From NCBI RefSeq assembly GCF_004346265.1, contig NZ_SMAP01000004.1, positions 134,056-174,055 of the forward strand: a stretch of DNA of 40,000 nucleotides. The letters are read 5' to 3'. Origin of the DNA: Thermomonas haemolytica (GTDB lineage: Bacteria > Pseudomonadota > Gammaproteobacteria > Xanthomonadales > Xanthomonadaceae). Both the position numbers and the translations under genes were made by a program. Below the pieces are notes generated by a model, which did no database searches, was not told where the DNA came from, and worked only from the letters and a program-made list of their open reading frames with translations. Shown one piece after another: positions 19,277 through 26,521 of this stretch (its first letter is position 1; the number at the start of each line of letters is the position of its first letter).

Positions 19277-19289
19277 CGGGATAGGCGGC

Positions 19290-20726
19290 TCAGGGAAGGA
19301 AAGTCAGGGCGATGCCCACGTTGCGCGGCTCGGTGAAGAACCGCATGGCCTCCAGCCCGCCCTCTCGGCCGAGGCCGGAGGCGCCGGTACCGCCGAAGGG
19401 CGTGCGCAGGTCGCGCAGCAGCCAGGTATTGATCCACACGATGCCGACCCGCAGCTGCGCGCCGAAGCGGTGTGCGCGGGCCAGGTCGCGCGTCCACACG
19501 CTGGCGGACAGGCCGTAGTCGGAGGCGTTGGCCAGCATCAGCGCGTCGTCGTCGGACTCGAAGGCTTGCAGCGTGACCACCGGGCCGAAGATCTCCTCGC
19601 GGTTGGTGGCGCAGTCCGGCCCCAGGCCTTCGATCACCGTGGGTGCGATGAACCAGCCCGCGCGCGCGATCGCCTCGCCGCCACACAGCACGCGGCCGCC
19701 CTCGGCGCGTGCGCGTGCGATCGCCGCCATCACCTTGTCGAAGTGGGCCTGCGACACCATCGGCCCCAGCTGCACGCCGTCCTCCAGCGGGCCGCCGATG
19801 CGCAGCGCGCGGGCGCGCGCGACGAAGGCATCGCGGAATTCGGGGTAGATCGCACGCTCGATGAGAATCCGCGAGCCGCACAGGCAGATCTGCCCGCTGT
19901 TCTGGAACGCGCTGCGCACCAGCGTATCGAGATGGGCGCGCCAGTCGCTGTCGGCGAACACCAGCGTGGCGTTCTTGCCGCCCAGCTCCAGCGACACCTT
20001 CTTCAGCTGCGGCCCGGCGATGCCGGCGATGCGGCGGCCCACCGCGGTGCTGCCGGTGAACGAGATCGCCTTGACCTGCGGGTGCGCCACCAGCGGCTCG
20101 CCGACCTCGGAGCCGAGACCGTGCACGATGTTGAGCACGCCCGGCGGCAGGCCGATCTCCAGCGCCAGCTCGCCCAGCAGCGTGGCGGTGGCGGGGGTGA
20201 TCTCCGATGGCTTGGCGACCACCGTGTTGCCGGCGGCCAGCGCCGGCGCGATCTTCCAGGTGAACAGGTACAGCGGCAGGTTCCACGGGCTGATGCAGCC
20301 CACCACGCCCAGCGGCAGGCGCAGGGTGTAGTTGAGGCCGGCCTCGCCGTGATGGGATTCGCTGGCGAACTGGGTGGCCGCATGCGCGAAGAAGCGCAGG
20401 TTGGAGATCGCGCGCGGGATCTCGACCTCGCGCGCCAGCGCCAGCGGCTTGCCGGCGTCGATCGCCTCGGCGCGGGCGAAGGCGTCCAGGCGTGCTTCCA
20501 GCGCGTCCGCCAGCCGTTCCAGATGGCGCGCGCGTTCGCTGTTGCGCAGGGCGGCCCAGCCGGGCGCGGCGGCCGAGGCGGCTTCGACCGCAGCCTCGAC
20601 GCTGGTAGCGTCGCCGGCGGCCACGTCCGCATACGGGTGCGCATGGGCGGGATCGAACACCGGCATCCAGCGCGTGCTGGTCGCTTCGCCGCAGGCGGCG
20701 CCGATCACGTGTCCGAAGCGTGGCAT
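19290..20726 (-). CDS. NAD(P)-dependent aldehyde dehydrogenase, (amino/hydroxy)muconate-semialdehyde dehydrogenase-like
   Basis: 478 aa with ALDH motifs (VGCISPWNLPL, SLELGGKNA) and the catalytic Cys context GQICLCGSR. The substrate assignment is inferred from adjacency to the 3-HAO and RidA-like genes. Confidence 0.85.
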   Translation of the reverse strand: MPRFGHVIGAACGEATSTRWMPVFDPAHAHPYADVAAGDATSVEAAVEAASAAAPGWAALRNSERARHLERLADALEARLDAFARAEAIDAGKPLALAREVEIPRAISNLRFFAHAATQFASESHHGEAGLNYTLRLPLGVVGCISPWNLPLYLFTWKIAPALAAGNTVVAKPSEITPATATLLGELALEIGLPPGVLNIVHGLGSEVGEPLVAHPQVKAISFTGSTAVGRRIAGIAGPQLKKVSLELGGKNATLVFADSDWRAHLDTLVRSAFQNSGQICLCGSRILIERAIYPEFRDAFVARARALRIGGPLEDGVQLGPMVSQAHFDKVMAAIARARAEGGRVLCGGEAIARAGWFIAPTVIEGLGPDCATNREEIFGPVVTLQAFESDDDALMLANASDYGLSASVWTRDLARAHRFGAQLRVGIVWINTWLLRDLRTPFGGTGASGLGREGGLEAMRFFTEPRNVGIALTFLP

Positions 20727-20735
20727 CCGCCAAGC

Positions 20736-21557
20736 TTACCAGCGGCGCGGCTGGCAGCGTGGGCACAGGAACAGCGGCCGCGATTGGCTGGCGATGCGTT
20801 CGAGCGGCGTGCCACAGCGCTCGCAGGGCGCGCCTTCGCGCTGGAACACGCGGAAACGGAACGCCTCGCCCTCGCGCGCGAGGTAGTCGGCGCGCATGCG
20901 GCGGGTGGGTTCGATGCCGCGGGTGGCATAGCTGCGGCGCGGGATCGCCAGCAGCGCCTCGGCCAGGCGCGCGGTCTGCGTCGCATCCAGGTCGCGCGGG
21001 CACAGGCTGGGATGCAGGCCCGCGTCGAACAGCACCTCCGCGCGCAGATAGTTGCCCATGCCGGCGAGGAAACCCTGGTCCAGCAGCAGCGCGCCCAACG
21101 CACGGCCGCGGAACGCGGGCGACTGCAGGCGCGCGGCCACGGTGGCGGCATCCAGCCTCGGGTCCAGCACGTCCGGGCCGAGCCGCTGCAGGAACGGGTG
21201 CGCTTCGATCTCGTCGCTGCACCAGAGTTCGACGTCGGAGGCGGAGTAGAGCAGGATCGATGCACGCGCGGTGTCGAGTGCGACACGCAGGCTACGCGCA
21301 GTGGCGGGGCGCTCGCCCGGGCCGACCACGTGCCACACCCCGTAGAGCTGGTTATGCGTGTACAGCGTCCAGCCGTTGTCGAACGCGGTCAGCAGCGCCT
21401 TGCCGCGTGGTGTGATCGACAGGATGCGGCTGCCCGGCAACGTGCGTTCGAAGCGCTTGAGCGCCGGGAATGCGAACTGCGCGCGCAGCAGCGGCTGCCC
21501 GACCACGGCGGCGGCCAGGCGGTCGGCGGCGCGGCGGATCTCGGGGCCTTCGGGCAT
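20736..21557 (-). CDS. nei: Endonuclease VIII (Fpg/Nei-family DNA glycosylase/AP lyase)
   Basis: Starts at ATG 21557 with the catalytic N-terminus MPEGPEI. It has an H2TH region and a C-terminal zinc finger (CERCGTPLERIASQSRPLFLCPRCQ). Confidence 0.9.
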   Translation of the reverse strand: MPEGPEIRRAADRLAAAVVGQPLLRAQFAFPALKRFERTLPGSRILSITPRGKALLTAFDNGWTLYTHNQLYGVWHVVGPGERPATARSLRVALDTARASILLYSASDVELWCSDEIEAHPFLQRLGPDVLDPRLDAATVAARLQSPAFRGRALGALLLDQGFLAGMGNYLRAEVLFDAGLHPSLCPRDLDATQTARLAEALLAIPRRSYATRGIEPTRRMRADYLAREGEAFRFRVFQREGAPCERCGTPLERIASQSRPLFLCPRCQPRRW

Positions 21558-21561
21558 GCGC

Positions 21562-22347
21562 TCAGATCGACTGCATGCGGCCGCCATCCACCGCGATCGA
21601 CTGGCCGTTGATGTAGGCGGCGGCGGGGCTGCACAGGAAGGCGATCAGGCTGGCCGGCTCGTGTGCCTCGGCGAAGCGCCCGGCGGGAACGCTGGCCAGC
21701 ATCGCCTGCGCCACGTCCTCCTTGGATTTGCCGGTGGCGGCGCTGCGCTCGGCCAGGATTTGCTCCAGCCGGCGGGTGCGGGTGTAGCCCGGCAGCACGT
21801 TGTTCACGGTGATGCCGTCGCCGCCGAGCTCGCGCGAGAGCGTCTTCGCCCAGCTCGCCACCGCGCCGCGGATGGTGTTGGAGACGCCGAGGTTGGGGAT
21901 CGGCTCGTACACCGAGGTCGAGATCACGTTGACGATGCGTCCCCAGCGCGCCGCGTGCATGCCCGGCAGCAGCGCCTGCACCAGCGTCTGCGCGGCGATC
22001 AAATGCGTCTGGAATGCCTGTAGATAGGCTGTTGCCGGTGCGGTGTGCGCGGGGCCGCCCGGCGGGCCGCCGCTGTTGTTGACGAGGATGTGCACCGGCG
22101 CGCGGGTCGCCAGCGCGCGCGCTGCATCCGCGAGGGCCTCGGCATCGGCCAGGTCGACGGCCAGCAGGCCATGCGCCTGGTCGCGTGTGTGCGGCAGGCT
22201 GGCGACGACTGCGCGCAGCGCGTCCTCGCGCCGCGCCAGCACGGTGACGTGGGCGCCGAGGGTGGCCAGTTCCAGCGCGGCGGCGCGGCCGATGCCTTCC
22301 GATGCGCCGCAGACCAGCGCGTGTTTCCCAGTCAGATCCAGATCCAT
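21562..22347 (-). CDS. Short-chain dehydrogenase/reductase family protein
   Basis: Starts at ATG 22347 (MDLDLTGKHALVCGASEGIGRAAALELA...). It has a Rossmann GxxxGxG-type motif and NNSG. A classical YxxxK is not obvious by eye in the expected region (SNTIRGAVASWAK), so the substrate is unknown and the chemistry may be atypical. Confidence 0.8.
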   Translation of the reverse strand: MDLDLTGKHALVCGASEGIGRAAALELATLGAHVTVLARREDALRAVVASLPHTRDQAHGLLAVDLADAEALADAARALATRAPVHILVNNSGGPPGGPAHTAPATAYLQAFQTHLIAAQTLVQALLPGMHAARWGRIVNVISTSVYEPIPNLGVSNTIRGAVASWAKTLSRELGGDGITVNNVLPGYTRTRRLEQILAERSAATGKSKEDVAQAMLASVPAGRFAEAHEPASLIAFLCSPAAAYINGQSIAVDGGRMQSI

Positions 22348-22393
22348 GCGGACGTCCTGCAAGTGGAGCGCCCGATTGTAAGCCGCGCCGCGT

Positions 22394-22957
22394 TCAGGCC
22401 ATGCCGCCGACCATGCCGCCCAGGCCTGCGGCCAGCCACAGCGAGGCACCGGCGAGGGTGCCGCCGATGGCGGTCGCCGCCAGCACGTCGCTGGGGTAGT
22501 GCAGGCCAAGCACCACCCGCGAGGCCGCCACGCTCACCGTGAACGGCACCAGCAGCCACGCCAGCGCCGGATAGTGCGCCACCGCGACCACGCTGAAGGC
22601 GACCGCGTGCAGGGTATGCCCGGACGGAAAGCTGAACTCGTCCAGCGGCGCCACCCACGCGCGGATGCGGCCATCGCGCGCGAACGGCCGCGGGCGCCGG
22701 GTCCAGCGCTTCAGGCGCGTGTACAGCAGCAGCGCCGCCAGCCCGGTCAGCGCCAGGTGCAGGCTGGCGCGCAGCCCGTCCAGCCCGTCGATCGCCACCA
22801 GCAGCGCCATCAGCGCGTACCAGAACACCCCATCGCCCAGGCGGCTGACCGCGGCGAAGTAGTGCAGCGGCCAGCGCCGCGCGCACAGCGCATTGGCATG
22901 CAGGCACCAGCGGTGCTCGGCCGCCAGCAGGCGCTCAGGAGAGGACGGACGCGGCAT
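22394..22957 (-). CDS. PAP2-superfamily (type 2 phosphatidic acid/undecaprenyl-PP-like) membrane phosphatase
   Basis: 187 aa from ATG 22957. All three PAP2 motifs are present: KRWTRRPRP, PSGHT and SRVVLGLHYPSD. It has several TM segments and overlaps the 3' end of the glycosyltransferase gene by 23 nt. Confidence 0.8.
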   Translation of the reverse strand: MPRPSSPERLLAAEHRWCLHANALCARRWPLHYFAAVSRLGDGVFWYALMALLVAIDGLDGLRASLHLALTGLAALLLYTRLKRWTRRPRPFARDGRIRAWVAPLDEFSFPSGHTLHAVAFSVVAVAHYPALAWLLVPFTVSVAASRVVLGLHYPSDVLAATAIGGTLAGASLWLAAGLGGMVGGMA

Positions 22958-24083
22958 GGGCAGGGCTCCCGATGGCGAGGGATCGCAACAGCTGGTCGAA
23001 ATCCTCGGCCACCCGCGCCGGGCGCAGCGCGGCGACCGCTTCGCGGCAGGCGGTGCGCATCGCCTCGCGCAGGGCGTCGTTCGCGCCCAGGCGCAGGGTG
23101 GCGGCGATGAAGCCGGCCTCGTCGTCGCAGGCCACCGCCGCGCCGTGCACGCCATCGCGCACCAGCTCGCGGGTGGCGCCGTAGTCGAAGGCCACCAGCG
23201 GCACGCCGCTGGCCAGTGATTCCAGCACGACGTTGCCGAAGGTCTCGCTGTGGCTGGGGAACAGGAACAGGTCGCCGCTGGCGAAGTGGCGGGCCAGCGC
23301 CTCGCCGCGCTGCACGCCGCAGAAGATGAAGTCGGGGTGCTCGCGCTGCAGGGCCTCGCGCGCCGGGCCATCGCCGACCCACACGAAGCGCGCGTCCGGC
23401 CGGATGCGCTGCAGTTCGCGGAAGGCGCGCACCGCCAGCGGCAGGTTCTTCTCCGGTGCGATCCGGCCCACGTACAGCACCGCCAGCGCGTGCGCATCCA
23501 GCCCCCAGGACGCACGCAGCGCGGCATCGCGCTGGTCGGGATGGAAGGCGCGGGTATCCACCGCGCGCGGCAGCAGCACGACGTTGCGGAAGCCGTGGCC
23601 CGTAAGGAAGGCCTGCAGTTCGCGGGTGGGCACCAGCGTGGCCTGCGCGCCGTTGTGGAAACGCCGCATCCAGCGCAGCGCGGTGCCCTGCAGCCAGGGC
23701 GCGCCGTAGCTGCGCATGTAATCGTCGAAGCGGGTGTGGAAGCCGGTGGCCGCCGGGATCCCCAGCTGGCGCGCCGCGCGCAGCGCCGACCAGCCCAGCG
23801 GGCCTTCGGTCGCCACGTAGATCGCATCCGGCCGCGCCTGCTGCCAGCGCTGGCGCAGCGCGCGCGTGGCGGGCAGGCCGAAGCGCAGCCCCGGATAGCG
23901 CGGCAACGCTGCCCCGCGCACCAGCAGGGTTGCATCTGTCGTCGCGGCATCCGTCGGTTGGCGCGGGCGTACCAGCTCCACCGCATGCCCGCGCTCGCGC
24001 AAGCCCAGTTCCAGCCCCTGCACGGTCAGCGCCACGCCGTTGACTTCCGGCGGGTAGGTCTCGGTGATGATGCCGTAGCGCAT
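22935..24083 (-). CDS. GT-B fold glycosyltransferase, family 4 (group 1)
   Basis: 382 aa from ATG 24083 (MRYGIITETYPPEVNGVALTV...). It has the C-terminal EX7E-type motif (FPSHSETFGNVVLESLASGVPLVA). Confidence 0.85.
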   Translation of the reverse strand: MRYGIITETYPPEVNGVALTVQGLELGLRERGHAVELVRPRQPTDAATTDATLLVRGAALPRYPGLRFGLPATRALRQRWQQARPDAIYVATEGPLGWSALRAARQLGIPAATGFHTRFDDYMRSYGAPWLQGTALRWMRRFHNGAQATLVPTRELQAFLTGHGFRNVVLLPRAVDTRAFHPDQRDAALRASWGLDAHALAVLYVGRIAPEKNLPLAVRAFRELQRIRPDARFVWVGDGPAREALQREHPDFIFCGVQRGEALARHFASGDLFLFPSHSETFGNVVLESLASGVPLVAFDYGATRELVRDGVHGAAVACDDEAGFIAATLRLGANDALREAMRTACREAVAALRPARVAEDFDQLLRSLAIGSPAHAASVLS

Positions 24084-24216
24084 GCGCGCCCCGTCGCCCC
24101 TGGCTTGCGTTCTGGCAAGCCTGGCGGTCGCCGGTGACCCGGCCATTGCGCCGGGATGACGCCCCGGTGACGGGCGTGCCCGGGCGTGGGCTGGGCGGCG
24201 AATCCGCGCGACGAAG

Positions 24217-24572
24217 GTGCCGGTGCTGGCCGACGCGATCAAGGCCATGTGCGCGCGCTGGAAGATCGGCCCGCACGGTGTGGCTGACGACGCCATATTC
24301 GCCAAGACCGGTAGCGGTGCCGGCTGCATCGCGGATGAGTTCGCGCGTGAGGGCGTCTACTTCGACCCTGCGCAGAAGGGTGGCCGGGTAAGTGGATGGC
24401 AGCGTATGCGCCGCCTGCTGTCCGACGCCGGCAAGCCCGACCGCCCCGGCTTGTACTTGAACCGGGCATGTCGCTACTGGTGGCATACGGCGCCCTATGC
24501 GGGGCGCGACCTTAAGCGACCGGGGACGTAGACAGCAGCGGGGCAGATCACGCGCTCGATGCCATGCGGTAA
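24217..24572 (+). pseudogene. Phage terminase large-subunit C-terminal (nuclease domain) remnant, frameshifted and truncated
   Basis: Frame A (24217-24531) reads ...VADDAIFAKTGSGAGCIADEFAREGVYFDPAQKGGRVSGWQRMRRLLSDAGKPDRPGLYLNRACRYWWHTAP. After a frameshift near 24515-24525, frame B reads GDVDSSGADHALDAMR followed by TAA at 24570-24572. Together these reproduce the terminal motif series of TerL proteins (ADP.IF, IAEEF...G..F.PA.KG.R..GW, P.L.I...C, DVDT...DH..DA.RY), with a stop where the final Tyr is expected. The ATPase domain is absent. Confidence 0.7.
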
Positions 24573-24700
24573 GGCACGCAGCGCATCGCGTGGGCAACGG
24601 AGTTCAACGTGACTTGGCCGTCGTAGGACTGCGCGGGCTGCGCTTCTCGGCCATGGGGAGCGCAGTTCGCACGGTGCCACTTGTGATGGGGCGGCGGGGG

Positions 24701-24727
24701 TGGCCACGTTCTAAGGGCGCGTGGCCA
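24701..24727. other. Perfect 8-bp hairpin 10 nt downstream of the membrane-protein ORF stop
   Basis: tggccacg-ttctaagggcg-cgtggcca. On the plus strand it is followed a few nt later by caattttta, and on the minus strand by a C-rich run with no U-tract. It may be a terminator for either strand, but the function is unproven. Confidence 0.3.
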
Positions 24728-24736
24728 GCCCAATTT

Positions 24737-25237
24737 TTACGCGGCGCGCGCGTTCGCTACTTGGAGAAGGATGAAGACAATTGGCATTAGCGAAATGAGG
24801 ATCATCAGTAGCGACGAAGCAATGAGGTAAATGACGATACTAGCTACCGTGGTACTGACTGCACTGGTCAACATCACCATGGAAAAGACAAACGCCGCAA
24901 TCAGCACCAGCATAGTCAAGCTAATCAGCCAGAGTTGAACTACAAGGTTTCCGTCGCGTCTATAAGACTCGAAAGGCGTGGTGTGCGAAACCGCGACAAA
25001 GATCGCGAGGAATGCAGCCAAGAAGCCTAGCATTGAGAAGCTATAGGAGGCGGCGGTTCCGGCGAACTGATCAGGCTTTTCGACCAGTTTTCTTAGTAGC
25101 TCGCTTCCCACCAGCCCCAGCTTTGGTAGCCACAGGTTGCGCAGCCACAGTAGCGGTAGCGGAAGGATATTTCCGATCAATGCCAAGATCAGGAAGACCT
25201 TTATCTTTCTTGAGGTTGGCATCGGATTTGAACTCAT
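24737..25237 (-). CDS. Small integral membrane protein with four predicted TM helices, no recognisable family (cassette gene 2)
   Basis: 166-aa ORF in the low-GC segment. Hydrophobic spans fall at about aa 13-32 (KVFLILALIGNILPLPLLWL), 62-83 (AASYSFSMLGFLAAFLAIFVAV), 98-123 (LVVQLWLISLTMLVLIAAFVFSMVML) and 130-159 (TVASIVIYLIASSLLMILISLMPIVFILLQ). Only ATG 25237 or ATG 25222 can include TM1. No good SD is visible. Confidence 0.75.
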   Translation of the reverse strand: MSSNPMPTSRKIKVFLILALIGNILPLPLLWLRNLWLPKLGLVGSELLRKLVEKPDQFAGTAASYSFSMLGFLAAFLAIFVAVSHTTPFESYRRDGNLVVQLWLISLTMLVLIAAFVFSMVMLTSAVSTTVASIVIYLIASSLLMILISLMPIVFILLQVANARAA

Positions 25238-26075
25238 TGACTTTGGCCTGCAACTTCGTATTCGCGGCGGTCTTGCTAGGAATTAATGACTTGAGATCGC
25301 CTTCCTTTTTAAAAGGCAGGAACTCGCGGATCGCGCCCTCGCCAACAATGTACACGTCCCGCACTTGATCCGCAGCTTCAACTTTGGCGCGGGCTTCAAG
25401 CGAAATAAGTTCGTTATCGGCCATGTTTTTCGATATGGCTGCTAGATCGTCTTTGAGGCTCTTCTTTCCTTTGCGAACGGGGCGAATGACAATCTTGATA
25501 CTGCCAATGTCGTGCAGAGTTTCTGGTGGTCTGTTTGTAAGCTGTTTGAGAAGGTTCTGGGTAAGCGTGCTAGCAGTATTCATTTCGACAGTTACTGCGC
25601 CCACATGCGTGAGTTTCTGAACTTCGTCTTTCGGCAGGTTCTCGGTGAGCAGCGTCGGAAGGAACACGTAGTCAAGCCCGCCGTATCCACGAACAACCTG
25701 CGTCATCATTTCGCAGAACGGTGTAATGCGTGGCGAAAGGACGCGGGATGCTATTCCCAAGTAGCCGTTCTCCATTGACAGGTAGGAAGCAAACCCGACT
25801 GTTTCGCTTTTCTGTAACTTGTCCTTGATGTCCTTTACGTCGAGCGTCTTGCCTTCAATCGCCTTGATAATTTCGTTCGCACGGGTCTGGACAAACAAGT
25901 AAATCCCGGTGCTGAAAGGCAGTAGGTAAAGATGATCGCCGTGATAGGTGATCGACGATTTGAACGACTGGCTCGTGCTGGCCACGAACTTCTTCGTGAG
26001 GTCGCGCAAGTCAACGAGATACTTCTTTCCGCTTGGTACGTGCTGCAGGCAGTACCCGTAGTAACAAATCCGCAT
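25071..26075 (-). CDS. 334-aa soluble protein of unknown family (cassette gene 1)
   Basis: This is the longest ORF in the low-GC segment, and ATG 26075 is preceded by aGGGGGAGtc. It has no TM segments and no Walker A, HTH or nuclease motif that I can recognise with confidence. The last roughly 55 codons (EFKSDANLKKDKG...AGAGGKRATKKTGRKA) are low-complexity and lie inside the overlap with gene 2, so the true C-terminus is uncertain. Confidence 0.8.
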   Translation of the reverse strand: MRICYYGYCLQHVPSGKKYLVDLRDLTKKFVASTSQSFKSSITYHGDHLYLLPFSTGIYLFVQTRANEIIKAIEGKTLDVKDIKDKLQKSETVGFASYLSMENGYLGIASRVLSPRITPFCEMMTQVVRGYGGLDYVFLPTLLTENLPKDEVQKLTHVGAVTVEMNTASTLTQNLLKQLTNRPPETLHDIGSIKIVIRPVRKGKKSLKDDLAAISKNMADNELISLEARAKVEAADQVRDVYIVGEGAIREFLPFKKEGDLKSLIPSKTAANTKLQAKVNEFKSDANLKKDKGLPDLGIDRKYPSATATVAAQPVATKAGAGGKRATKKTGRKA

Positions 26076-26136
26076 GACTCCCCCTGTGCTTTAGGTCTGC
26101 AACCAGGAGGCTCCCCGTCCGTGGCTGCTCAGAGTC

Positions 26137-26165
26137 AGCCTAGGCCGTCTCATGCGGGGCGACAA
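26137..26165 (-). promoter_or_regulatory. Candidate promoter for the cassette (TTGTCG-N17-TAGGCT on the minus strand)
   Basis: The reverse complement of 26160-26165 is TTGTCG, followed by a 17-nt spacer, and the reverse complement of 26137-26142 is TAGGCT. It sits about 60 nt upstream of ATG 26075. This is a weak, pattern-only call. Confidence 0.2.
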
Positions 26166-26398
26166 GAGGCAAGTCCCGGCGCCGGTGCATCGCGGACGTT
26201 CGACCGGACATCCCTGCAGAGGGTGTAGTGGCCTAGGCGCCGGGGCGCTGCCAGCGTGCCCCCTGCATCCTGTGGCTGCCAGCAGCGGCAGCCGGCGCGT
26301 GCGGTAGGAAAGCGCCCCAGCCGAGCGTAAGGCGGCGCCATACCAGCCTCGCCGCGATTCGGCCATCATTCGGCCACAGCGCAAGGGTCACAAAGGAT

Positions 26399-26432
26399 AA
26401 GGGCCTAGCCTTTCGGCTAAGCCCTTGTTTTT
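26399..26432. terminator. Hairpin abutting the 3' end of tRNA-Leu (tRNA terminator / bidirectional terminator)
   Basis: aagggcctagcc-tttc-ggctaagccctt forms a 12-bp stem with one G-U pair. On the plus strand it is followed by gttttt, and on the minus strand it directly follows the tRNA CCA end. Confidence 0.45.
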
Positions 26433-26434
26433 AC

Positions 26435-26521
26435 TGGTGCCGGAAGTGGGACTCGAACCCACACGCTTTTAAGGGCGGCGGATTTTGAGTCCGCTGCGTC
26501 TACCGATTCCGCCATTCCGGC
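26435..26521 (-). tRNA. tRNA-Leu (anticodon CAA), CCA encoded
   Basis: The reverse complement reads GCCGGAATGGCGGAATCGGTAGACGCAGCGGACTCAAAATCCGCCGCCCTTAAAAGCGTGTGGGTTCGAGTCCCACTTCCGGCACCA. The acceptor stem is GCCGGAA/TTCCGGC and the anticodon stem is GCGGA/TCCGC with loop CTCAAAA. It has a long variable arm (class II) and a T-arm GTGGG-TTCGAGT-CCCAC. Confidence 0.95.

What the first reader, a model, noticed from the sequence alone, without database searches (positions are those of the whole stretch)
24737..26075. Low-GC two-gene cassette (334-aa soluble protein + 166-aa four-TM protein) at tRNA-Leu: candidate undescribed membrane-coupled phage-exclusion/defence module
Seen in sequence: three hand-counted 60-nt samples inside 24780-25920 gave 43-50% G+C, against 68% in a flanking sample at 24001-24060. 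Codon third positions here are A/T-rich, whereas every neighbouring gene is G/C-locked. The segment lies between a broken phage terminase gene and tRNA-Leu(CAA), a classic landing site for accessory DNA. Gene 1 has no TM segment and no motif I can assign. Gene 2 is a compact four-TM protein with very short loops. Established knowledge: a soluble protein followed by a small four-TM partner is the layout of lambda RexA/RexB (same gene order). A four-TM protein plus a soluble DUF4868 protein is the layout of Kiwa KwaA/KwaB (opposite order). Inference: this may be a Rex-like or Kiwa-like two-component system, or a new family with the same logic. I cannot show sequence homology to either.
Basis: partly seen in the sequence, partly recalled or inferred. 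Interest (0 to 1): 0.85.

Follow-up and report, generated by a model that had tools for sequence, protein, structure and literature searches.

The report
RexA/RexB phage-exclusion cassette, overlapping genes
The low-GC two-gene cassette is a true relative of phage lambda's RexA/RexB exclusion system, left at a tRNA-Leu hotspot in a Thermomonas chromosome; it is a known kind of system, and its one unusual trait is that the membrane gene starts about 150 bases inside the sensor gene, so gene finders usually miss or shorten it.

Summary
Window 24737-26075 is the only low-GC patch in the 40 kb (about 0.51 against 0.64-0.77). It carries two minus-strand genes between tRNA-Leu(CAA) and a roughly 100-aa fragment of a phage terminase large subunit.

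The "undescribed family" reading does not hold.
- Gene 1 matches Pfam RexA over the whole profile (E 6.5e-55). It also matches lambda RexA directly (PDB 8TWQ, E 1.9e-11), and its AlphaFold model finds only 8TWQ.
- Gene 2 matches the PADLOC RexB model (E 2e-9). A profile of its clade aligns to lambda RexB over all four TM helices (hhalign 95%).
- Nothing matches Kiwa.

So this is a RexAB homologue, probably from Thermomonas haemolytica. It has no repressor, integrase or att repeat nearby.

One feature goes beyond lambda. rexB starts 152-167 nt inside rexA, in the +1 frame. All 21 distinct "long RexA" loci I examined have this overlap (77-167 nt); lambda-type phages do not. In every public gene-call set I inspected, rexB was absent or cut short. 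This may explain some reported "orphan" RexA genes.

Function is inferred from lambda: RexA senses infection and RexB collapses membrane energy. Verdict: new member of a known kind, modest interest.

The parts
25071..26075 (-). rexA homologue, 334 aa. A soluble two-domain protein with a C-terminal extension of about 50 aa beyond lambda RexA; residues 308-334 are a disordered basic tail.
   Evidence: Pfam PF15969 RexA at E 6.5e-55, profile 1-235/235. PADLOC RexA at 3.6e-39. PHROG 12654 at 1.9e-16. phmmer against PDB 8TWQ at 1.9e-11. AF2 model pLDDT 72.6, with 308-334 below 50. Foldseek against 8TWQ at E 8.9e-12. Lambda's DNA-binding R219-A-K221 is conserved as R229-A-K231.
24737..25237 (-). rexB homologue, 166 aa from the ATG at 25237, or 161 aa from the ATG at 25222, where homology to relatives begins. 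A four-TM inner-membrane protein.
   Evidence: PADLOC RexB at 2.1e-9. Pfam RexB scores only 14.1 bits, below the gathering cut-off of 27. hhalign of clade profile A3 against lambda RexB gives 95.4%, E 1.7e-8, residues 10-147 against 2-130. The HMM alignment starts at 25222.
25071..25237 (-). rexA/rexB overlap, with rexB in the +1 frame relative to rexA. It encodes RexB TM1 and, in the other frame, the RexA C-terminal extension.
   Evidence: The overlap is conserved at 77-167 nt, always in frame +1, in all 21 distinct long-type loci. Within the overlap, codon-position variability follows the RexB frame: 0.204 at RexB position 3 against 0.036 at RexA position 3. Lambda-type loci have a 15-24 nt gap instead.
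26076..26190 (-). Conserved leader and probable promoter region upstream of rexA, with a strong Shine-Dalgarno sequence (cagggggag) before the ATG and a candidate TTGTCG-N17-TAGGCT.
   Evidence: About 100 nt are shared with L028 and L030, the closest relatives, while sequence further upstream differs. SD conservation is shown. The consensus promoter scan found nothing, and the RNA fold is not significant (z = -0.56). The promoter assignment is inference only.
24217..24531 (+). Remnant of a phage terminase large-subunit gene (C-terminal ~100 aa), convergent with rexB.
   Evidence: tblastn against phage TerL genes gives E 4e-7 to 7e-4 at 34-39% identity. There is no Pfam or PHROG hit. The part from 24310 onward is co-linear with rexAB in an unrelated context, L028 and L029.
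24310..26190 (-). Core of the transferred segment: leader, rexA, rexB and part of the TerL remnant.
   Evidence: It shares 83% nucleotide identity over 1884 columns with metagenome contigs L028 and L029, whose flanks differ.
26435..26521 (-). tRNA-Leu(CAA). Its 3' end is the synteny breakpoint, so this is an integration hotspot.
   Evidence: Called by ARAGORN and by Rfam at 60.9 bits. Homology with Thermomonas alba and Thermomonas sp. stops at 26434/26435. No att-like repeat of the tRNA was found elsewhere.
24697..24731 (-). GC-rich hairpin just after the rexB stop codon. It may be a terminator, but it has no T-run.
   Evidence: Inverted repeat I14: 12-nt arms, 92% complementary, 11-nt loop. 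The terminator scan did not call it.

Best explanation
The cassette is a genuine homologue of the phage lambda RexA/RexB exclusion system. It was acquired horizontally and now sits as a repressor-less prophage relic at the tRNA-Leu(CAA) hotspot of a Thermomonas chromosome, probably T. haemolytica.

**Shown here**
- Gene 1 is a RexA-family protein with the lambda RexA fold and its DNA-contact residues.
- Gene 2 is a RexB-family four-TM membrane protein.
- Both genes have evolved under purifying selection.
- rexB starts 152-167 nt inside rexA in the +1 frame. This arrangement is shared by the whole "long RexA" clade and is absent from lambda-type phages.

**Inferred from lambda genetics (established knowledge, not tested here)**
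- Cytoplasmic RexA dimers sense a product of phage infection, classically proposed to be a phage DNA-protein or replication/recombination intermediate.
- Activated RexA engages RexB in the inner membrane. RexB then dissipates membrane potential and ATP, which aborts the infection.
- No cI/Cro switch is present in this locus for RexA to modulate. The host-beneficial exclusion activity is therefore the most likely reason the pair is kept intact.

**Further inference**
- The overlap ties rexB initiation to translation of the rexA 3' end. That would keep RexB low relative to RexA. In lambda, this ratio decides whether Rex fires.
For: **Homology.** RexA matches, and its fold matches 8TWQ. RexB matches.

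**Layout.** Gene order and strand are as in lambda. The motif R229-A-K231 corresponds to lambda R219-A-K221, which is required for DNA binding and exclusion (PMC11077077).

**Selection.** Variability is highest at third codon positions in both non-overlapping parts: 0.375 against 0.029-0.099 in rexA, and 0.414 against 0.023-0.126 in rexB.

**Foreign origin.**
- GC is 0.51 against 0.70, and GC3 is 0.63 against 0.90 or more.
- The synteny break lies at the tRNA 3' end.
- A TerL remnant is adjacent.
- Relatives sit in Mu-like prophages, one with an S24 repressor directly upstream as in lambda's cI-rexA-rexB. Another lies beside an integrase.

**Overlap.** It is conserved in all 21 distinct long-type loci. 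TM1 inside the overlap aligns to lambda RexB TM1.
Against: - No function was tested. Even for lambda, the molecular trigger and the channel activity of RexB remain models. Adams et al. 2024 caution that exclusion may be a by-product of Rex effects on host energetics (PMC11077077).
- The window's RexB does not reach Pfam's gathering score (14.1 against 27 bits). BLASTP against lambda RexB is not significant. RexB membership therefore rests on profile-level evidence plus synteny.
- No promoter was detected by the consensus scan.
- The purifying selection measured may date from the cassette's time in a phage rather than in this chromosome.
- The stoichiometry role of the overlap is an inference. 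A synonymous-codon simulation shows only weak to moderate evidence that the RexA frame is kept open longer than chance (P 0.01-0.14 in nine of the thirteen loci tested, not significant in four).
Confidence: 0.85

Rival explanations
1. The cassette is a decaying, functionless relic. It is leftover prophage DNA that no longer does anything for the cell, and the intact ORFs reflect recent acquisition rather than current selection.
For: No integrase, repressor, att repeat or other phage gene remains apart from a TerL stub of about 100 aa. No consensus promoter was found. A decayed copy exists elsewhere: in L009 from Pseudomonas entomophila, rexA is truncated at 222 aa and there is no rexB. GC has not ameliorated.
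Against: Both ORFs are intact, including the fragile overlap. The same cassette, with its conserved leader of about 100 nt and its SD, persists at 82-83% nucleotide identity in two other genomic contexts, with a third-position-dominated substitution pattern. Stand-alone rexAB pairs recur in chromosomal contexts in several lineages. That recurrence is typical of domesticated defence genes.
Confidence: 0.12
2. The main selected role is not abortive infection. Like lambda RexA, the protein could act as a DNA-binding modulator of a lysis-lysogeny switch, or RexB could act as an inhibitor of ClpXP/ClpAP proteolysis and an anti-death factor. These activities might work in trans on other prophages or on toxin-antitoxin systems in the cell.
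For: Lambda RexA biases the CI/Cro switch independently of RexB, and RexB inhibits Clp-dependent degradation of lambda O, Phd and MazE (PMC11077077). In one relative, rexA lies directly after an S24 repressor in a Mu-like phage. The DNA-contact residues are conserved.
Against: There is no repressor or Cro partner in or near the island. Strict co-conservation of rexA with rexB, physically interlocked by the overlap in 21 loci, argues that the pair acts together, as in exclusion.
Confidence: 0.15
3. The cassette is a Kiwa-like system or a new two-component membrane defence family that is only analogous to Rex.
For: Only the generic layout supports it: a soluble protein plus a small four-TM protein, in a low-GC island.
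Against: Full-length RexA homology at E 6.5e-55 and a direct hit to lambda RexA. RexB homology at profile level. No KwaA, KwaB or DUF4868 match.
Confidence: 0.01
4. The overlap serves programmed +1 (or -2) ribosomal frameshifting. Part of the RexA pool would then be made as a membrane-anchored RexA-RexB fusion.
For: The frame relation is always +1. One natural in-frame RexA-RexB fusion of 431 aa exists in a marine metagenome contig (P0057/L040). This shows the fused topology is at least encodable.
Against: I saw no conserved slippery sequence or stimulatory structure in the overlap by eye; this was not systematically tested. rexB has its own conserved ATG or GTG at the homologous position in every locus. 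The single fusion could be a sequencing indel or a lineage-specific mutation.
Confidence: 0.05

Closest known systems
Phage lambda RexA/RexB (Pfam PF15969/PF15968; PADLOC RexAB; RexA structure PDB 8TWQ)
   Same: The proteins are homologous: RexA by direct sequence and fold match, RexB by profile. Gene order (rexA then rexB) and strand are the same. RexB has four TM helices and a similar size (161-166 aa against 144 aa). The RexA R-A-K DNA-contact motif is conserved. Both have a temperate-phage origin.
   Different: RexA identity to lambda is only about 22-25%. RexA is 334 aa against 279 aa, with a C-terminal extension ending in a disordered basic tail. rexB starts 152-167 nt inside rexA in the +1 frame, whereas lambda has a 15-nt gap. 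No cI, cro or operator neighbourhood is present. The cassette lies in a chromosome at a tRNA-Leu, not in an intact prophage.
Long-RexA clade in Mu-like prophages and stand-alone chromosomal cassettes of Lysobacterales, Pseudomonas, Acinetobacter and uncultured bacteria
   Same: RexA length is similar (308-339 aa) and the +1 overlap is the same (77-167 nt). RexB is 152-166 aa. GC is lower than the host's in most loci. RexA identity to the window protein runs from 92% down to 25%.
   Different: Some members are still inside recognisable phages. L032 is Mu-like, with transposase, Mu gp27, Mu F and TerL. L036 has an S24 repressor directly upstream. L035 lies beside an integrase. The window copy keeps only a TerL stub.
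Actinobacteriophage Rex-like systems (Sbash gp30/31, CarolAnn gp44, Toast gp42)
   Same: These are RexA homologues that are longer than lambda's (337-372 aa). They pair with a membrane partner, and exclusion has been demonstrated experimentally. They bind DNA non-specifically (PMC11077077).
   Different: I did not compare them at the sequence level here. Their hosts are Gram-positive actinobacteria. Whether their genes overlap was not examined.
Kiwa (KwaA four-TM protein plus KwaB DUF4868)
   Same: Only the generic pairing of a soluble protein with a small multi-TM protein.
   Different: The gene order is opposite, and no sequence match to KwaA, KwaB or DUF4868 was found.

Membership tests
RexA (Pfam PF15969) | Full-length match to the family HMM above the curated cut-off | tested here: met
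   186.7 bits against a cut-off of 25; E 6.5e-55; profile 1-235/235 on residues 1-238. PADLOC RexA at 3.6e-39.
RexA (Pfam PF15969) | Direct similarity to the type protein, lambda RexA | tested here: met
   phmmer against PDB 8TWQ chain A gives E 1.9e-11, residues 45-249 against 40-239. tblastn against lambda genomes gives E 3e-5.
RexA (Pfam PF15969) | Two-domain RexA fold: a split globular domain plus a dimerisation domain | tested here: met
   The AF2 model (pLDDT 72.6) finds 8TWQ as the only hit with E <= 0.001 (8.9e-12, probability 1.00). TM-score is only 0.39-0.46, which is consistent with a different inter-domain angle.
RexA (Pfam PF15969) | Conserved DNA-contact residues (lambda R219/K221) | tested here: met
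   R229-A230-K231 aligns with lambda R219-A220-K221. A230 is invariant and R229 nearly invariant in the clade.
RexA (Pfam PF15969) | Dimerisation and non-specific DNA binding in vitro | not testable with these tools
   This needs purified protein, with SEC and EMSA as in PMC11077077.
RexB (Pfam PF15968) | Match to the family HMM above the curated cut-off | tested here: not met
   The window protein scores 14.1 bits against a cut-off of 27 (E 0.065). Eight of 12 clade members hit the model at E <= 0.1, the best at 2e-4.
RexB (Pfam PF15968) | Profile-level homology to lambda RexB across the TM helices | tested here: met
   PADLOC RexB HMM at E 2.1e-9. Six clade members score 8e-6 to 1.5e-12, several over the full length. 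hhalign of the clade profile against lambda RexB gives 95.4%, E 1.7e-8, over 129 columns. BLASTP alone is not significant.
RexB (Pfam PF15968) | Small (about 145-165 aa) four-TM protein encoded immediately 3' of rexA on the same strand | tested here: met
Lambda-type Rex immunity-region module | Co-transcription with a cI-like repressor inside a prophage immunity region | tested here: not met
   No repressor, Cro or operator region lies within or next to the island. The upstream neighbour is tRNA-Leu followed by MetX. The arrangement is present in relative L036 and in Hafnia and Salmonella phages.
Lambda-type Rex immunity-region module | Exclusion of superinfecting phage (e.g. T4 rII) with loss of membrane potential | not testable with these tools
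   This needs plaque and EOP assays and membrane-potential assays.
Kiwa (KwaA/KwaB) | KwaB DUF4868 domain and a KwaA match | tested here: not met
   No such hit in PADLOC or Pfam at E <= 1.

The most novel reading that the evidence does not exclude
The long +1 overlap of rexB on rexA may be a functional device of the dominant RexAB clade. It is conserved in all 21 distinct loci examined, from 30% to 70% GC hosts, and absent in lambda. It could set the RexA:RexB ratio, or occasionally produce a fusion. Because gene callers cannot call such an overlap, RexB would be systematically missing from protein databases. Many RexA genes reported as "orphans" without RexB in bacterial genomes (Adams et al. 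2024) would then be complete, hidden RexAB systems.
Probability: 0.4. Interest if true: 0.45.

Novelty: new member of a known kind. Interest (0 to 1): 0.3.

Why it matters
For the finding as posed, the result lowers its importance. The "undescribed defence module" is RexAB, one of the oldest known phage-exclusion systems, and Pfam and PADLOC models already recognise it.

Two modest points remain useful.

1. **Where RexAB occurs.** RexAB-type modules occur well outside enterobacterial lambdoid phages. They are found in Mu-like phages, and as stripped-down chromosomal cassettes in high-GC Lysobacterales with no repressor attached. Such a cassette is a natural test of whether exclusion, rather than switch modulation, is the selected function.

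2. **Annotation.** In this clade rexB begins 77-167 nt inside rexA. In all nine public gene-call sets I inspected, rexB was absent or truncated. A search of 5.8 billion proteins returned only one full-length relative. The truncated form scores only 18 bits on the PADLOC RexB model. Defence-system censuses that need both genes will therefore undercount RexAB. Conclusions drawn from "orphan" RexA genes should be rechecked with six-frame searches.

Tried and rejected
- **att sites.** I looked for a direct repeat of the tRNA-Leu 3' half at the far end of the island and anywhere in the window. Only chance-level matches of 11-17 nt turned up. No integrase remnant was found in 26076-26434.
- **tRNA-Cys at 26184-26263.** ARAGORN calls it, but Rfam does not support it at the gathering score or at E <= 1. 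I treat it as a false positive in GC-rich palindromic sequence.
- **Kiwa or a new family.** Rejected, as set out above.
- **The 98-aa public gene call as the true RexB.** Rejected. The upstream 55-68 residues encode TM1, are conserved in all relatives, and align to the lambda RexB N-terminus.
- **Structured 5' leader or riboswitch upstream of rexA.** The fold is not better than shuffles (z = -0.56) and there is no Rfam hit.
- **Promoter and terminator scan.** No sigma-70 consensus promoter was found. Three terminator-like sites were found (shuffles give 2.6); the one in an intergenic position is the hairpin after tRNA-Leu.
- **Is the RexA frame kept open by selection?** The synonymous-codon simulation gave mixed results: P 0.01-0.14 in nine of thirteen loci, not significant in four. 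The RexA tail beyond the LG(I/L)D motif may be largely a by-product of overprinting.
- **RexB structure prediction.** Only a 3-sequence alignment was permitted, and confidence was low (pLDDT 58). I used it only for helix positions.
- **First related-loci run.** It failed because the alignment included lambda and was too divergent. I repeated it without lambda.
Full report
**1. The observation**

The window is about 70% G+C throughout. The only low-GC patch is 24600-26100. There, 300-nt windows give 0.48-0.53 against 0.69-0.75 on both sides. No other 500-nt bin in the 40 kb drops below 0.636, apart from the bin that takes in the 3' part of rexB.

Two minus-strand ORFs occupy the reported coordinates: 26075..25071 (334 aa) and 25237..24737 (166 aa). 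Their GC3 is 0.63-0.64, against 0.90-0.94 in the neighbouring genes. The codon-position contrast is real, but "A/T-rich" overstates it.

tRNA-Leu(CAA) lies at 26435-26521 on the minus strand.

The "broken terminase" claim is also supported. ORF 24217-24531 (+) has no Pfam or PHROG hit. By tblastn, however, it matches the C-terminal part of terminase large subunits of several phages (E 4e-7 to 7e-4, 34-39% identity).

An 80-nt "tRNA-Cys" called by ARAGORN at 26184-26263 is not supported by Rfam at any threshold. I regard it as a false positive.

**2. What the genes are**

*Gene 1 is a RexA.*
- It matches Pfam PF15969 (RexA) over the entire profile at E 6.5e-55 (186.7 bits; cut-off 25).
- It matches PADLOC RexA at 3.6e-39 and PHROG 12654 "RexA-like exclusion protein" at 1.9e-16.
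- It matches lambda RexA itself, PDB 8TWQ, at E 1.9e-11 by plain phmmer.
- An AlphaFold model built on 16 homologues has pLDDT 72.6. It finds 8TWQ as the only significant PDB match (Foldseek E 8.9e-12, probability 1.0). The low TM-score (0.39-0.46) is what a hinged two-domain protein modelled in a different opening angle would give.
- Lambda residues R219 and K221 are needed for DNA binding and for T4 rII exclusion (PMC11077077). They align to R229 and K231 in an R-A-K motif that is almost invariant in the clade.

*Gene 2 is a RexB, on weaker but consistent evidence.*
- It scores E 2.1e-9 on the PADLOC RexB model.
- It scores only 14.1 bits on the Pfam model, below the cut-off of 27.
- It is not significant by BLASTP against lambda RexB.
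- A 12-sequence profile of its clade aligns to lambda RexB with 95.4% probability (E 1.7e-8). The alignment covers residues 10-147 against 2-130, that is, all four TM helices.

*Kiwa is excluded.* Nothing resembling KwaA, KwaB or DUF4868 appears.

**3. Where it sits**

The exact RexA protein is encoded in GCA_003350065.1 (contig QLKV01000012.1) and in several other assemblies with the same neighbourhood. In the direction of rexA transcription that neighbourhood runs: ccm operon, MetX, tRNA-Leu, rexA, rexB, TerL stub, GT4 glycosyltransferase, PAP2, SDR, Fpg.

A truncated copy of RexB is annotated "hypothetical protein [Thermomonas haemolytica]". MetX relatives are all from Thermomonas and Luteimonas.

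Two other Thermomonas genomes were compared. Homology to the window stops exactly at the 3' end of tRNA-Leu (window 26434/26435). In one of them it resumes 7.15 kb away, at the carbonic-anhydrase gene.

No duplicated tRNA segment, integrase or repressor remains.

The low-GC core plus part of the TerL stub (window 24310-26190) recurs at 83% nucleotide identity in metagenome contigs with different flanks. This segment of about 1.9 kb, including a conserved leader of about 100 nt with a strong Shine-Dalgarno sequence, behaves as a unit.

**4. Relatives and their contexts**

RexA homologues are rare. There were 25 clusters in the 5.8-billion-protein search. In the 1.84-billion-representative library, 280 clusters reached E <= 1e-3, and nearly all were 300-337 aa long.

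Contexts are of three kinds:
- Mu-like prophages: L032 has transposase, Mu gp27, Mu F and TerL; L036 has an S24 repressor immediately upstream of rexA, mirroring lambda's cI-rexA-rexB.
- The edge of an integrase-bearing element: L035.
- Stand-alone pairs among housekeeping or variable chromosomal genes: L002, L031, L034.

In most loci the cassette is lower in GC than its host DNA. Among 50,697 isolated phage genomes only lambda-type RexA genes match, at 27% identity or less. The window's clade is essentially known only from prophages and metagenomes.

**5. The overlap**

In lambda, in Hafnia phage yong1 and in a P22-like Salmonella phage, rexA (279-281 aa) ends 15-24 nt before rexB starts.

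In every long-type locus with enough sequence, RexB-homologous coding begins 77-167 nt before the rexA stop. This holds for 21 distinct sequences, with RexA identity to the window from 92% down to 25% and host GC from 30% to 70%. The offset is always the +1 frame.

The overlapped part encodes RexB TM1. TM1 is conserved and aligns to the lambda RexB N-terminus. The overlap is therefore not a start-codon artefact.

Lambda RexA's C-terminus aligns to the point where rexB's ATG lies. The extra 25-55 residues of long RexA are thus overprinted on the 5' end of rexB.

Among close relatives, per-site variability by region is as follows:

| Region | Site class | Variability |
|---|---|---|
| rexA-only part | RexA 3rd position | 0.375 |
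| Overlap | RexB 3rd position (= RexA 1st) | 0.204 |
| Overlap | RexA 3rd position | 0.036 |
| rexB-only part | RexB 3rd position | 0.414 |

RexB's frame therefore dominates selection in the overlap. The halved rate at RexB third positions suggests some extra constraint from RexA.

A synonymous-codon simulation gives only mixed support for active maintenance of the open RexA frame (P 0.01-0.14 in nine of the thirteen loci tested, not significant in four).

The RexA tail carries a semi-conserved LG(I/L)D(R/W) motif. It ends in a disordered stretch with 7 K/R and no D/E.

One marine metagenome contig encodes an in-frame RexA-RexB fusion of 431 aa. This could be a real Rosetta-stone fusion or an indel.

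**6. An annotation consequence**

In all nine independent public gene-call sets I saw, rexB was either absent or truncated:
- Absent: L002, L028, L031, L034, L036.
- Truncated to a start after the rexA stop or only slightly inside rexA: 98, 120, 124 or 74 aa.

A search of 5.8 billion proteins with the full RexB found only one full-length relative, from a 579-nt contig (presumably too short to hold a complete rexA), plus one 94-aa truncation.

The 98-aa form scores only 18.3 bits (E 5.6e-4) on the PADLOC RexB model, against 35.9 bits for the full protein.

From my own knowledge, common gene callers such as Prodigal limit same-strand overlaps to about 60 nt, which would explain this.

Adams et al. 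2024 mention "orphan RexA homologs ... without an adjacent RexB partner" in bacterial genomes (PMC11077077). Some of these may be this artefact. I could not fetch those genomes to check.

**7. How it most likely works**

*Shown here:*
- Both proteins are homologous to lambda RexA and RexB.
- The RexA DNA-contact motif is conserved.
- RexB has four TM helices.
- Both genes have evolved under purifying selection.
- The two genes are physically interlocked.

*Inferred from lambda (established genetics, not tested here):*
- RexA dimers sense an infection-specific signal.
- They engage RexB in the inner membrane.
- The cell then loses membrane potential and ATP, and the infection aborts.

The window copy has no cI/Cro partner for the switch-modulating role of RexA. 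Exclusion is therefore the most plausible selected function.

*Inference:* starting rexB inside an actively translated rexA would keep RexB synthesis low and coupled to RexA. This fits lambda's known sensitivity to the RexA:RexB ratio.

*Rivals:*

| Rival | Probability |
|---|---|
| Neutral relic | about 0.12 |
| Non-defence role (switch modulation or Clp inhibition in trans) | about 0.15 |
| Frameshift fusion | about 0.05 |
| Kiwa or a new family | about 0.01 |

**8. Verdict**

The conserved +1 overlap and the resulting invisibility of rexB to annotation pipelines are the only points of wider interest. Overall interest is 0.3.

Noticed in passing
window 26184-26263 (+): ARAGORN calls an 80-nt tRNA-Cys(GCA) with the anticodon at position 33. 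Rfam's tRNA model does not find it at the gathering score or at E <= 1. It lies in GC-rich sequence with GGCGCC palindromes, right at the upstream edge (26190) of the segment shared with L028. It is probably a false positive.
   Followed up: partly
L040 507-1802 (protein P0057, GOS marine metagenome contig GOS2248_10068383): A single ORF of 431 aa encodes RexA (1-288) fused in frame to a RexB-like four-TM region. This is either a natural RexA-RexB fusion or an indel in the assembly. Only one contig carries it.
   Followed up: partly
window 19281-26434, compared with L039 6271-6360 and L038: Synteny among Thermomonas genomes breaks exactly at the tRNA-Leu(CAA) 3' end. Relative to Thermomonas sp. 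(L039), the window carries 7.15 kb of extra DNA, most of it at native GC: aldehyde dehydrogenase, Fpg, SDR, PAP2 and GT4. T. alba has different genes there. The site is a variable hotspot well beyond rexAB.
   Followed up: partly
window 22935-24083 (-): The GT4 glycosyltransferase next to the island passes the Pfam cut-off for PF20706, "Family 4 glycosyltransferase in conflict systems" (30.2 bits against 26). It matches the generic GT1 and GT4 families far better. Whether it relates to defence is unknown.
   Followed up: no
L028 208-483 (+): In the closest relative (RexA 92% identical), an extra low-GC 91-aa ORF (MAKPLIVSYDLRQQGQNYKC...) lies directly upstream of the rexA leader. It is absent from the window. 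Its function is unknown and I did not search it.
   Followed up: no
L009 10001-10669 (Pseudomonas entomophila WZ006): rexA is truncated at 222 aa and no RexB-like ORF follows it. This looks like a decayed copy of the system.
   Followed up: no
L013 2393-2478 (-): A second, distantly related rexAB locus (37% RexA identity) also lies next to a tRNA-Leu(CAA), this time downstream of rexB. This hints at recurrent use of that tRNA as an attachment site by the carrier elements.
   Followed up: no
L002 7381-9633 (+): A 750-aa protein with two AAA+ ATPase domains lies immediately upstream of a stand-alone rexAB in a Lysobacterales-type MAG, and also in two Logan contigs. It may be a co-travelling accessory or defence gene.
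   Followed up: no
window 24697-24731: A 12-bp GC-rich hairpin (GGGCTGGCCACG...CGTGGCCACCCC on the minus strand) begins 6 nt after the rexB stop codon and has no T-run. It may be a terminator or a repeat element.
   Followed up: no
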